A DNA stretch of 19,040 bases from a virus (Duplodnaviria; Heunggongvirae; Uroviricota; Caudoviricetes): the IMG/VR virus record IMGVR_UViG_2526164604_000026, positions 1 to 19,040 of that record, one strand, 5' to 3'. The position numbers are program-made. Shown one piece after another: positions 9,001 through 12,000 of this stretch. The stretch's first letter is position 1; every line of letters begins with the position of its first letter.

Positions 9001-12000
9001 ATGAATTTTTCGAAACACAGAGCCGCAATGTAACCGACTGGATGCCGCTACCAGAACCGCCGCAGGAGGTGCGCCAATGATCTGGCCTGAAGCCTTTGCA
9101 ATTACAGGCGTTGCTATAGCTATTGATTTTTTAGTATATGTTATTTGTCGGTGGGGGTAAAAACGTTCGCCGGGATTCACACCAAAGGAGGGAATATGTC
9201 GGATGATATTTCACTGGCAATGGAAGGTGCGCTGGCTGTTATTGCTGTTGTGGGCGTTTACTGCCTGGTTGTGTTTTTGATGGATCGACTAGGGAACTGA
9301 ATTCATTACGATATGGGAATTCCCATATCGGGTAAAAACGGTTTGCGGTAAAGCGAGAGTTAAGTAGAATTGCTGCGGGTGCTTGAGGCTGTCTGCCTCG
9401 GGCATGCCACCGTAAGGCAGACAGAGAAAAGCCCCAGTTAACATTACGCGTCCTGCAAGACGCCTAACATTAATCTGAGGCCAATTTCATGCTAGACACA
9501 TGTAGGTTAGCCTCTTACGCGCCGAAAGGCAAGGAGAAGCAGGCTATGAAGCAGCAAAAGGCGATGTTAATCGCCCTGATCGTCATCTGTATCACCGTCA
9601 TAGTGACGGCACTGGTAACGAGGAAAGACCTCTGCGAGGTACGAATCCGAACCGGCCAGACGGAGGTCGCTGTCTTCACAGCTTACGAACCTGAGGAGTA
9701 AGAGACCCGGCGAGGGAGAAATCCCTCGCCACCGCTGATGTGTCAGGCATCCTCAACGCACCCGCACTTAACCCGCTTCGGCGGGTTTTGTTTTTTCTGG
9801 TCGTTCTGGTTTACAATCCATCCGTCAGCCTGAACAACTGGCACCTGCTGCGCCAGCAGAGAAAACAGATGGCGCACGATACCAAATTTTACAATTCGGA
9901 TAACTCTGCCGCCCCTGCCAGCAGGCACGGGCGGCGTTCTCATGCATTCAAATCTGACTGGTATCAGCACGACCCCTGCACCGAGAACAGGCTGAATGGC
10001 TGATTCAGTGTTACCGCAGGCGCGGATACGAGGTTAAGAAAGCCCTCAGTCTCGATTATCGTCACTGGATAATCTCCGTCAGGCTTCCTTACTCCGAACG
10101 CCCACCGCGTCCGTCCCGCACATTCCAGCAACGCATCTGGAGGTAACGTGCGGGTATTACTTCGACCTGTTCTGGTACCGGAACTCGGGCTGGTGATCGT
10201 TAAGCCGGGCCGTGAATCCATGCCGGTATTCCACAATACCCGGGTACTGGTGGAGCCGGAACCGAAAAGCATGCGAAATCTGCCGTCCGGGGTTGTACCT
10301 GCCGTTCACCAGCCGCTGGCGGAAGATAAATCACTACTGCCATTTTTCAGCGATGAGCGGGTGATCCGTGCTGCGGGTGGCGCTGGTGCACTGTCTGACT
10401 GGTTATTACGTCACGTGAAATCCTGCCAGTGGCTACACGGTGATTATCATCACAGCGAAACCGTCATTCACCGTTACGGTACCGGCGCGATGGTGTTGTG
10501 CTGGCACTGCGACAACCAGCTGCGGGAGCAGACATCTGATTCACTGGATCAACTTGCTCAACAGAATCTGGCCGCCTGGATGATTGACATCATCCGTCAC
10601 GCAATGAATGGCGCACAGGAGCGTGAATTATCTCTGGCTGAATTATCCTGGTGGGCGGTCCGCAATCAGGTGGCGGACGCGCTACCGGAAGCGGTATTAC
10701 GTCGTTCGCTGGGGTTGCGTGCGGAAAAAATCCGCTCCGTATACCGTGAAAGCGACATCATACCGGGAGAACAGACCGCCACCAGCATACTGAAGCAGCG
10801 CACAAAAAATATTGCGCTACCGTCTCACACCCACCAGCAACAGAACCCACCACAGGAAAAGACGGTGGTCAGCATTGCCGTTGATCCGGAGTCTCCGGAA
10901 TCCTTCAGGAAACGACCTAAACGTCGCCGCTGGGTAAATGAGAAATACACACGCTGGGTAAAGACACAGCCGTGTGCGTGTTGTGGTAAGCCAGCGGACG
11001 ATCCTCATCATCTGATTGGTCATGGTCAGGGTGGAATGGGAACAAAATCCCACGATATTTTCACGCTACCGCTGTGTCGGGAGCATCACAACGAGCTTCA
11101 TGCGGATCCGCTGGCGTTCGAAGAAAAGCATGGTTCCCAGGTTGATTTAATTTTTCGTTTTCTTGATCACGCCTTTGCGACTGGCGTGCTCGGGTAAAAG
11201 AGGTTACTGATGCGCATAGAGTTGGTTTTACCTTACCCGCCGACGGTGAACACCTACTGGCGACGTCGTGGCAGCACATATTTTGTATCAAAAGCCGGTG
11301 AGCGTTATCGCCGGGCTGTGGCGCTTATTGTTCGCCAGCAGCGGCTGAAATTAAGCCTGTCCGGAAGGCTGGCGATAAAGATTATTGCCGAGCCACCGGA
11401 TAAGCGCCGCCGTGACCTGGACAATATTCTGAAAGCGCCGCTGGATGCGCTGACGCATGCGGGGTTGCTAATGGACGATGAGCAGTTTGATGAAATCAAT
11501 ATCGTTCGTGCTCAGCCAGTATCTGGTGGACGTCTGGGGGTGAAGATTTACCCCATAATGCTTGAAGGGCAGGTCAAAAAATGAAACTGGAAGATTTACC
11601 GAAATACTACTCCCCAAAATCCCCCGGCCTGACTGATGCATCGGCCTCAACGTCGAAAGATACGCTGAGTATCACTGATGTGATGGCCGCGCAGGGCATG
11701 ACACAGAATTGGGCTGAGATGGGGTTTTCTGCGTTCCTTGGGAAAATGGGCATTAGTATGAATGACAGAGAGCGGGCAACAGAATTGCTGACAGAATATG
11801 CACTCAGTCGGTGTGATCGCGTGGCGGCGTTAAGAAAACTCCCGGCAGAAATAAAACCGGCAGTGATGCGTATTATGGCTTCGTATGCGTTTGAAGATTA
11901 TGCCCGTAGCGCGGCGAGCAAAAAACAGTGCCCCTGTTGTCACGGAAAAAAATTTATTGAAAGCGAGGTTTTTACAAACAAGATCCAGTATCCGGATGGT

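What the first reader, a model, noticed from the sequence alone, without database searches (positions are those of the whole stretch)
9342..9800. hok/mok/sok type I toxin-antitoxin locus embedded in the nin region
The Hok toxin sequence is unmistakable, and an in-frame Mok-like extension and a terminator are present. A structured leader contains a strong inverted repeat (CTGTCTGCCT at 9390-9399 pairing with AGGCAGACAG at 9415-9424). The Sok promoter and RNA ends are only inferred. Whether this copy is active (intact antisense RNA and mRNA fold-back elements) or decayed like several chromosomal hok loci cannot be decided from sequence alone.
Basis: partly seen in the sequence, partly recalled or inferred. 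Interest (0 to 1): 0.45.

Follow-up and report, generated by a model that had tools for sequence, protein, structure and literature searches.

The report
Intact prophage hok/mok/sok toxin-antitoxin locus
This is a complete but ordinary copy of the well-known hok/sok "host killing" toxin–antisense RNA module, of the hokD/hokW type that RefSeq already annotates in thousands of E. coli prophages.

Summary
Window 9343-9797 holds a full hok/mok/sok type I toxin-antitoxin locus. The Hok toxin is 51 aa (9546-9701; Pfam HOK_GEF 83 bits). mok is in frame with hok (9489-9701). The hok leader matches Rfam RF01794 at 117 bits against a threshold of 59. A convergent Sok gene on the minus strand (about 9497 to 9425) has -35 and -10 hexamers identical to those of sokW of Sakai prophage Sp5, which has been tested experimentally. 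Every regulatory element defined for plasmid R1 is present. These are tac, the metastable 5' hairpin, ucb, the mok SD, dcb/sokT, the 3' stabilising hairpin and fbi. Folding reproduces the closed full-length to open truncated switch. Forty-two diverse homologues support both conformations with compensatory changes. E. coli K-12 hokD has lost its leader and sok; this copy has not. It lies between the replication genes and Q of a Rac-like lambdoid prophage of STEC-type E. coli. It differs by one synonymous base from a locus annotated hokD in RefSeq. Activity cannot be proven from sequence, but nothing is broken. Novelty: already known; low interest. One side observation: the Sok 5'-tail/target stretch is the most variable part among close relatives.

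The parts
9343..9370 (+). Inferred hok/mok promoter: -35 TTGCGG (9343-9348), 16-nt spacer, -10 TAGAAT (9365-9370). The transcript would start 7 nt downstream, at G9377.
   Evidence: Read directly. The -10 and the stretch from it to the start site are identical in the 933W/Sp5-type hokW locus. The consensus scan did not report it because the -35 matches only 3 of 6. Weak and inferred.
9377..9797 (+). Full-length hok (mok-hok) mRNA, about 421 nt. The 5' end is set by homology to the R1 +1 and by position 1 of the Rfam model. The 3' end is set by the intrinsic terminator.
   Evidence: Rfam RF01794 positions 1-157 align to 9377-9551. Fold z-score -8.7. 122 of 144 fetched homologous loci align over the whole stretch from tac to fbi.
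9377..9388 (+). tac (translational activator element) at the very 5' end, GGGUGCUUGAGG.
   Evidence: In the full-length MFE it pairs with 9751-9763. In the 3'-truncated MFE it pairs with 9429-9435. The tac/ucb pairs are 99% paired in 42 homologues.
9379..9405 (+). Metastable hairpin of the nascent transcript. It sequesters tac: 11 bp, loop UGUCU, -18.4 kcal/mol.
   Evidence: Folds of the first 29-50 nt. This is the role described for R1 in PMC9841398.
9389..9424 (+). It is the upper part of the tac stem-loop and is present in both the full-length and truncated conformations.
   Evidence: 87.9% of cells are paired in 42 homologues, and 4 pairs show changes on both sides. 9391/9422 is G-C here and A-U in hokW.
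9429..9437 (+). ucb (the anti-SD of mok), AGCCCCAGU.
   Evidence: In the full-length fold it pairs with the mok SD region 9475-9481, with a C·A mismatch at 9434/9478. This is the same mismatch reported for R1 (C74/A106; PMC9841398). In the truncated fold it pairs with tac.
9425..9497 (-). Predicted Sok antisense RNA, about 73 nt: a 5' single-stranded tail, a long hairpin, then CUUUUCU. It is complementary to the mok SD and mok start codon.
   Evidence: Fold -32.9 kcal/mol, z = -6.3. The ends are inferred from R1 Sok and from the 71-nt complementarity reported for sokW. The RNA itself has not been observed.
9504..9532 (-). Sok promoter: -35 TTGCCT (9532 to 9527), 17-nt spacer, -10 TAACCT (9509 to 9504).
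   Evidence: Both hexamers are identical to sokW of the Sp5/933W type; there is one spacer difference at 9520. The paper's promoter-less construct was made with primers YO-421 and YO-422, which flank this -10. I infer from the primer sequences that TAACCT is the hexamer that was replaced. The consensus scan missed it at its own threshold.
9477..9480 (+). mok Shine-Dalgarno, GAGG.
   Evidence: Invariant in all 42 aligned homologues, R100 included.
9489..9701 (+). mok ORF, 70 codons, in frame with hok and sharing its stop codon.
   Evidence: mok is in frame with hok in 25 of 42 family members, +1 in 11 (R100/R1 among them) and +2 in 6.
9477..9514 (+). sokT target hairpin of the open form. The mok SD GAGGC (9477-9481) pairs with dcb GCCUC (9510-9514). 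The loop CUAGACA holds a YUNR-type CUAG.
   Evidence: Enforcing this stem costs only 1.2 kcal/mol above the MFE of the truncated RNA. It is the MFE for nascent 140-174-nt fragments. The five SD/dcb pairs are paired in every sequence that has letters at both positions.
9531..9536 (+). hok Shine-Dalgarno, AAGGAG. It overlaps the Sok -35 on the other strand.
   Evidence: CAAGGAG is invariant in 42 homologues. In both folds this region is partly paired with 9677-9692.
9546..9701 (+). hok toxin gene, 51 aa, HokD type. It differs from K-12 HokD by one residue (Leu16 to Ile).
   Evidence: Pfam HOK_GEF 83.2 bits. In FRIK1989 and STEC799 the protein from a CDS that differs only by a synonymous base (9593) is annotated 'HokD', WP_001303917.1.
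9709..9730 (+). GC-rich hairpin that would form the protective 3' end of the processed (truncated) mRNA.
   Evidence: Perfect 9-bp inverted repeat. 95.9% paired, with 3 pairs changed on both sides, in 42 homologues. It corresponds in position to the R1 hairpin at the Tr 3' end.
9751..9763 (+). fbi (fold-back inhibitory element), CCUCAACGCACCC.
   Evidence: Pairs with 9377-9388. The helix is 90.4% paired in homologues. It shows compensatory U-A to C-G (8 sequences) and G-C to A-U (5 sequences) changes.
9770..9797 (+). Intrinsic terminator: AACCCGCTTCGGCGGGTT followed by TTGTTTTTTC.
   Evidence: The same terminator follows K-12 hokD and 78 of 100 fetched loci that have the fbi motif. It is absent from the 933W-type hokW locus.

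Best explanation
This is a structurally intact hok/mok/sok type I toxin-antitoxin module of the hokD/hokW lineage. It is carried in the early region of a lambdoid, Rac-like prophage, between the replication genes and Q.

Inferred mechanism, by homology with R1 hok/sok and Sp5 hokW-sokW:
1. A weak promoter makes a mok-hok mRNA of about 420 nt.
2. While the mRNA is being made, a metastable 5' hairpin hides tac.
3. In the finished RNA, tac (9377-9388) pairs with fbi (9751-9763) and ucb (9429-9437) covers the mok SD. The mRNA is then stable, untranslatable and invisible to Sok.
4. Slow 3' trimming back to the 9709-9730 hairpin removes fbi.
5. tac then pairs with ucb. The mok SD moves into the SD/dcb target hairpin, so mok can be translated, and hok is translated through coupling to mok.
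6. As long as the locus is transcribed, the unstable Sok RNA (about 73 nt, minus strand) binds this open form across the mok SD and start codon. Translation is blocked and the duplex is cleaved.
7. When Sok synthesis stops, the stored mRNA yields Hok. Causes could be loss of the element, a general transcription shut-off, or prophage induction. Hok then damages the inner membrane.

Shown here: the sequences, pairings, conservation and covariation. Inferred: transcription, processing, toxicity and the biological trigger.
For: Toxin family and leader RNA family are both far above threshold.

Folding of the window sequence alone reproduces the closed form (tac/fbi, ucb/SD) and the open form (tac/ucb). 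The SD/dcb hairpin is within 1.2 kcal/mol of the MFE, and the nascent metastable hairpin also appears. The elements are as defined for R1 in PMC9841398.

In 42 homologues from Escherichia, Kluyvera, Photorhabdus, Erwinia, Pantoea and plasmid R100:
- closed-form helices are 87.9% paired, against 39-48% when the partners are slid;
- open-form helices are 84.4% paired, against 39-52% when slid;
- 18 and 17 pairs respectively show changes on both sides.

There are no differences from the experimentally functional hokW-sokW type in tac, ucb, mok SD, Sok -10/-35 or hok SD-ATG. The function of that locus is reported in PMC8621323.

Predicted Sok has a single-stranded 5' tail, a strong hairpin and a U-rich tail.

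The same locus is widespread: 4737 of 5426 complete E. coli genomes have a match, 2010 records at 95% identity or more.
Against: No expression, processing or toxicity data exist for this copy.

Both promoters fall below the threshold of the generic sigma-70 scan.

Chromosomal hokA, hokB and hokC loci that look intact were reported not to mediate post-segregational killing or to respond to rifampicin (introduction of bioRxiv 10.1101/2025.08.07.668861). An intact sequence therefore does not guarantee activity.

The MFE of the truncated RNA is not the textbook SD/dcb hairpin, although the two are nearly iso-energetic.

The covariation controls have known limits when sequences are related.
Confidence: 0.85

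Rival explanations
1. The locus is intact but its job is that of hokW-sokW in Sp5. It would be a phage-benefit module that switches on during prophage induction and advances lysis and phage release, rather than a stabilisation or defence module.
For: For the Sp5 homologue, sokW RNA disappears after mitomycin C. HokW appears in a RecA-dependent way about 1 h before the endolysin, and phage yield halves without the locus (PMC8621323). The window locus has the same regulatory elements and sits in a prophage that has an integrase, a Q gene and lysis genes.
Against: The genomic position differs. hokW lies near the attachment site beyond the tail genes, while this copy lies between the replication genes and Q. 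The Hok C-terminus and the Sok tail also differ. Whether this prophage is inducible is unknown.
Confidence: 0.35
2. The locus is sequence-intact but physiologically silent. It would be a selfish passenger that moves with mosaic prophage modules, like the chromosomal hok loci reported not to kill after rifampicin or loss.
For: Chromosomal hokA, hokB and hokC loci were reported inactive in such tests. Many copies exist per genome (median 2, up to 10 places). Homology to unrelated phages begins and ends close to the locus (about 9335 to about 9797), which suggests a mobile cassette.
Against: Conservation of paired positions and compensatory changes in regulatory helices argue for selection on regulation. 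The closest tested homologue is functional.
Confidence: 0.2
3. The copy is decayed: a hok remnant without working antisense control, as in K-12 Qin.
For: Such remnants exist. K-12 hokD and eight other fetched loci share homology with the window only from 9532 onward. One copy (L007) has a mutated tac.
Against: This copy keeps the whole leader, mok, the Sok promoter and Sok, all at the family consensus. There is no IS element, frameshift or stop.
Confidence: 0.04

Closest known systems
hokW-sokW of Sakai prophage Sp5 / 933W-type Stx2 phages (Takada et al. 2021, PMC8621323)
   Same: About 91% identical over the locus. tac, ucb, mok SD, the Sok -10 and -35 hexamers, hok SD-ATG and the paired part of fbi are identical. 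Both have the in-frame 70-codon mok and the same extended Sok hairpin. Both are prophage-borne in STEC.
   Different: Six substitutions in the Sok 5'-tail/target stretch (9482-9495). The Hok C-terminus differs (TAYEPEE versus VDYESEK), and residue 16 is Ile versus Leu. This copy has a hokD-type terminator after fbi, which hokW lacks. The prophage position differs: early region here, near the att site there.
hokD (relF) of the K-12 Qin cryptic prophage
   Same: Hok differs by one residue. The 3' UTR, fbi and terminator are the same, and so is the neighbourhood (DUF968 gene ydfU downstream).
   Different: K-12 hokD lacks everything upstream of window position 9532: tac, ucb, Sok, mok and the Sok -10. 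That region is replaced by relBE. The window copy is the complete form.
hok/sok (parB) of plasmids R1/R100
   Same: Same architecture and the same named elements, including the C·A mismatch in the ucb/SD helix and the CUAG in the target loop. Sok promoter of the same design: TTGCGC-17-TATCCT versus TTGCCT-17-TAACCT.
   Different: Hok is only about 44% identical; that figure is the one reported for HokW versus R1 Hok. mok is in the +1 frame in R1 and in frame here. The Sok hairpin is 16-18 nt longer here. The carrier is a plasmid rather than a prophage.

Membership tests
[quoted passage not shown] | Small hydrophobic Hok/Gef toxin | tested here: met
   PF01848 at 83.2 bits against a cut-off of 22. 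The NCBIfam Hok subfamily and HokA equivalog models hit below their cut-offs (48.1 against 73; 39.9 against 89). RefSeq nevertheless names the identical protein HokD.
[quoted passage not shown] | Structured hok mRNA leader (Rfam RF01794) | tested here: met
   116.9 bits against a gathering score of 59, over the full model 1-157, on the hok-coding strand.
[quoted passage not shown] | Overlapping mok reading frame with its own SD upstream of hok | tested here: met
   GAGG at 9477-9480 and ATG at 9489; 70 codons, open to the hok stop.
[quoted passage not shown] | Long-range 5'-3' fold-back (tac/fbi) that closes the full-length mRNA | tested here: met
   9377-9388 pairs with 9751-9763 in the MFE. 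The helix is 90.4% paired with compensatory changes in 42 homologues.
[quoted passage not shown] | ucb sequesters the mok SD in the closed form; tac/ucb and SD/dcb pair in the open form | tested here: met
   The SD/dcb hairpin is 1.2 kcal/mol above the MFE for the truncated RNA.
[quoted passage not shown] | Convergent cis-antisense Sok gene (promoter, 5' tail, terminator hairpin) covering the mok translation start | tested here: met
   TTGCCT-17-TAACCT on the minus strand, with hexamers identical to functional sokW. The predicted 73-nt RNA folds as expected, z = -6.3. This tests sequence only.
[quoted passage not shown] | 3' processing of hok mRNA to a translatable truncated form | not testable with these tools
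   The 9709-9730 hairpin is in the right place. Processing needs northern blots or 3' RACE.
[quoted passage not shown] | Hok kills; Sok RNA neutralises | not testable with these tools
   Shown for the Sp5 homologue and, according to the literature, for K-12 HokD overexpression. Not shown for this copy.

The most novel reading that the evidence does not exclude
Between the mok SD and the Sok -10 lies a 22-nt stretch (9482-9503) that forms the Sok 5' tail and its target loop. This stretch may be a diversifying 'address' that keeps the several prophage-borne hok/sok copies in one genome orthogonal.

Among 72 close relatives it is the most variable stretch: 0.76 bits per column, against 0.18 overall and 0.06 in the hok CDS. 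It falls into about 20 discrete alleles. Co-resident copies carried different alleles in 12 of 13 genomes examined.

I did not find this stated in the papers I read, but I did not search exhaustively.
Probability: 0.4. Interest if true: 0.35.

Novelty: already known. Interest (0 to 1): 0.12.

Why it matters
It matters little beyond correct annotation. The result shows that this prophage carries the complete ancestral form of the hokD locus, of which E. coli K-12 keeps only a truncated remnant. It also gives exact coordinates for mok, Sok and the regulatory RNA elements, none of which are in the RefSeq annotation shown for this stretch (only the hokD CDS is). That helps anyone deleting or engineering STEC prophages. 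It also helps anyone testing whether prophage hok/sok copies affect induction, lysis timing or phage exclusion.

Tried and rejected
- The generic promoter scan found no sigma-70 site in 9250-9900. I rejected this as evidence of absence, because the scan requires at least 4 of 6 matches in each hexamer and 9 of 12 overall. The validated sokW promoter has the same hexamers and would also be missed.
- NCBIfam Hok models scored below their curated cut-offs. The Pfam score and the RefSeq naming settle the family.
- ARAGORN found no tRNA in the window. The related STEC799 prophage has three tRNAs after Q.
- The MFE of the truncated RNA did not show the textbook SD/dcb hairpin. A constrained fold showed it is 1.2 kcal/mol away.
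- I considered that early-operon read-through on induction silences Sok by transcriptional interference. I dropped this as a general mechanism because hokW in 933W-type phage sits elsewhere and in the opposite orientation to its neighbouring late genes.
- MAFFT misaligned the R100 3' end, so R100 contributes some of the unpaired cells in the fbi helix.
- My first translation coordinates were off by one. They were corrected to hok ATG = 9546.
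Full report
**1. The observation**

- ORF listing gives a 70-aa frame at 9489-9701. Its last 51 residues start at ATG 9546 and read MKQQKAML...AYEPEE.
- These 51 residues match Pfam HOK_GEF at 83.2 bits against a cut-off of 22.
- The mok ATG is 57 nt upstream of the hok ATG, so mok is in frame with hok.
- Rfam family RF01794 ('sok') matches 9377-9551 on the plus strand at 116.9 bits against a gathering score of 59, E 1.8e-26. The model ends at the hok start codon and lies on the hok-coding strand. In practice it models the hok mRNA leader; Sok itself is its reverse complement.
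- The inverted repeat is real. The second arm is at 9415-9424 as stated. The first arm is at 9389-9398, one base off. The repeat extends to 9378-9398 / 9415-9435.
- A terminator hairpin at 9770-9787 is followed by a T-run.
- The 421-nt transcript folds with z = -8.7 relative to dinucleotide shuffles. None of this is chance.

**2. Context**

Neighbouring genes:
- Upstream: integrase and excisionase, RacR/YdaS/YdaT-type immunity genes, DnaT-like and P-like replication genes, DUF1627 and DUF551.
- Downstream: DUF968, RusA and the Q antiterminator, then a SASA esterase and lysis genes.

hok therefore lies in the positional equivalent of the lambda nin region of a Rac-like lambdoid prophage. It is co-oriented with the early-right genes.

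The closest genomes are STEC and O157 strains. FRIK1989 matches at 99.0% over 95% of the window. Over 9300-9830 the window differs from strain STEC799 by a single synonymous base, at 9593. RefSeq annotates the identical protein (WP_001303917.1) as 'type I toxin-antitoxin system toxin HokD'.

Matches occur in 4737 of 5426 complete E. coli genomes, with a median of 2 and a maximum of 10 places per genome. They also occur in 78 phage records.

**3. Anatomy against the characterised systems**

PMC9841398 defines the R1 elements:
- tac/fbi closes the full-length mRNA.
- ucb (the anti-SD) sequesters the mok SD.
- After 3' trimming, tac/ucb and SD/dcb stems form. These free mok translation and expose the Sok target.
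- A metastable 5' hairpin prevents co-transcriptional translation.

Folding of the window sequence alone reproduces each step:
- Full length: 9377-9388 pairs with 9751-9763, and 9431-9437 pairs with 9475-9481. The latter helix has the same C·A mismatch that the R1 study found to be functionally tuned.
- After removal of the 3' end beyond the 9709-9730 hairpin: 9377-9384 pairs with 9429-9435.
- The SD/dcb target hairpin (9477-9481 with 9510-9514) is 1.2 kcal/mol above the MFE for the truncated RNA. It is the MFE for 140-174-nt nascent fragments.
- The first 29-50 nt form an 11-bp hairpin over tac.

**4. Sok**

On the minus strand the sequence reads TTGCCT (9532 to 9527), a 17-nt spacer, then TAACCT (9509 to 9504). 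R1 has TTGCGC-17-TATCCT.

The Sp5 hokW-sokW paper made its promoter-less sokW construct with primers YO-421 and YO-422, which flank this -10. I infer from the primer sequences that TAACCT is the hexamer that was replaced. That mutation released HokW toxicity.

As a stand-in for Sp5 I used the locus from Stx2 converting phage I (L003). It matches every published Sp5 primer exactly. Against it, the window has:
- zero differences in tac, ucb, mok SD, Sok -10, Sok -35 and hok SD-ATG;
- one difference in the Sok promoter spacer;
- one difference just outside the paired part of fbi;
- compensatory double changes in two stems, 9391/9422 and 9713/9726.

The predicted Sok runs from about 9497 to about 9425 (73 nt). 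It has a single-stranded 5' tail, a long hairpin and a U-rich end (-32.9 kcal/mol, z = -6.3). This is consistent with the 71-nt complementarity reported for sokW.

Relative to R1 and the Rfam consensus, the hairpin carries a 16-18-nt self-complementary insertion. The hokD/hokW clade and Kluyvera copies share it.

**5. Comparative test**

I fetched 140 homologous loci from species-representative genomes and IMG/VR. Of all 144 loci held, 122 align from tac to fbi. I aligned 42 diverse sequences. They come from Escherichia, Kluyvera, Pseudocitrobacter, Citrobacter, Photorhabdus, Erwinia, Kalamiella, Pantoea and plasmid R100.

| Conformation | Cells paired | Cells paired when partners are slid | Pairs changed on both sides |
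|---|---|---|---|
| Closed form | 87.9% | 39-48% | 18 |
| Open form | 84.4% | 39-52% | 17 |

The tac/fbi helix shows U-A to C-G in 8 sequences and G-C to A-U in 5. The controls have known limits for related sequences, but the pattern is the one expected of a conserved two-state RNA.

By contrast, K-12 hokD and eight other loci share homology only from window position 9532 onward. They lack the leader, mok and Sok. One E. coli copy (L007) has a mutated tac. The window copy is the complete form.

**6. Mechanism and function**

The most likely reading is a canonical, intact hok/mok/sok module, regulated as in R1 and Sp5. Shown here are the sequence, the pairing potential and evolutionary conservation. 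Inferred are transcription, 3' processing, Sok instability, toxicity and the trigger.

The biological role is open:
- Prophage or module stabilisation.
- Exclusion of lytic phages (hok/sok of R1 reduces T4 plating; cited).
- Help with lysis on induction, as shown for hokW-sokW.
- No function, as reported for some chromosomal loci.

Hok enrichment in prophages is already documented.

**7. Novelty**

Already known. The toxin is annotated in RefSeq, the family is the textbook type I toxin-antitoxin system, and a 91%-identical prophage homologue has been characterised experimentally. What this work adds is exact coordinates for mok, Sok and the RNA elements, which the RefSeq annotation shown for this stretch lacks, and the statement that nothing is disrupted.

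**8. Side observations**

- The stretch 9482-9503 covers the Sok 5' tail, the target loop and the first mok codons. It is the most variable part among 72 close relatives: 0.76 bits per column, against 0.18 overall and 0.06 in the hok CDS. It forms about 20 discrete alleles. Co-resident copies differed in 12 of 13 genomes examined. This suggests diversification for orthogonality, but it is not a rigorous test.
- The mok frame relative to hok varies across the family. This fits the published view that translation of mok matters rather than the Mok product.

Noticed in passing
window 9482-9503 (and the same stretch in loci L005-L144): The Sok 5'-tail/target-loop stretch is the most variable part among 72 close relatives: 0.76 bits per column against 0.18 overall. 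It forms about 20 discrete alleles, and the window carries the commonest one (14 of 72). Co-resident copies carried different alleles in 12 of 13 genomes. This may reflect diversification that keeps copies orthogonal.
   Followed up: partly
window 9489-9546; alignment A1: The reading frame of mok relative to hok is not conserved in the family. It is in frame in 25 of 42 sequences (including this window), +1 in 11 (including R100/R1) and +2 in 6, where mok is only 19-20 codons long.
   Followed up: yes
window 9684-9689: TACGAA (the Tyr47 codon plus GAA) is invariant in all 42 aligned hok genes, R100 included. TACG is, from my own knowledge, the TadA A-to-I editing motif. The Hok preprint says editing recodes the corresponding Tyr to Cys in hokC, hokD and hokE. 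In the MFE fold this stretch also pairs with the hok translation start region.
   Followed up: partly
window 9447-9464: A self-complementary insertion of 16-18 nt lengthens the Sok terminator hairpin and its mirror hairpin in hok mRNA, relative to R1 and the Rfam consensus. It is present in the hokD/hokW clade and in Kluyvera copies, and absent from the Photorhabdus, Erwinia, hokC-like and R100 sequences.
   Followed up: partly
window about 9984-9985: There is a one-base deletion (CCGAAGAAC to CCGAGAAC) relative to strains FRIK1989 and STEC799. It frameshifts the 92-aa hypothetical gene annotated at 9869-10147 between hok and the DUF968 gene. This is either a pseudogene or a sequencing error.
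   Followed up: partly
window 9309-9330: A perfect 22-bp palindrome, CGATATGGGAATTCCCATATCG, lies between the 34-aa ORF (9196-9300) and the hok promoter. It is just outside the left edge of homology with the 933W-type hokW locus. Its function is unknown.
   Followed up: no
window 13174-13340 (+): An Rfam hit to the sRNA family STnc100 (RF02076) at 101.6 bits against a gathering score of 47. It lies downstream of the Q antiterminator and just upstream of the SASA esterase gene.
   Followed up: no
window 12402-13481: ARAGORN finds no tRNA genes after Q in this prophage. The related STEC799 prophage has tRNA-Ile and two tRNA-Arg genes there. In FRIK1989 the TerB-family gene in this interval is annotated as carrying an internal stop.
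   Followed up: no
L002 (K-12 Qin) 820-1060; also loci L008, L053, L061, L069, L070, L106, L110: The truncated K-12-type hokD recurs in several genomes and viral contigs. Its breakpoint is at the position equivalent to window 9532, inside the Sok -35, with relE immediately upstream.
   Followed up: partly
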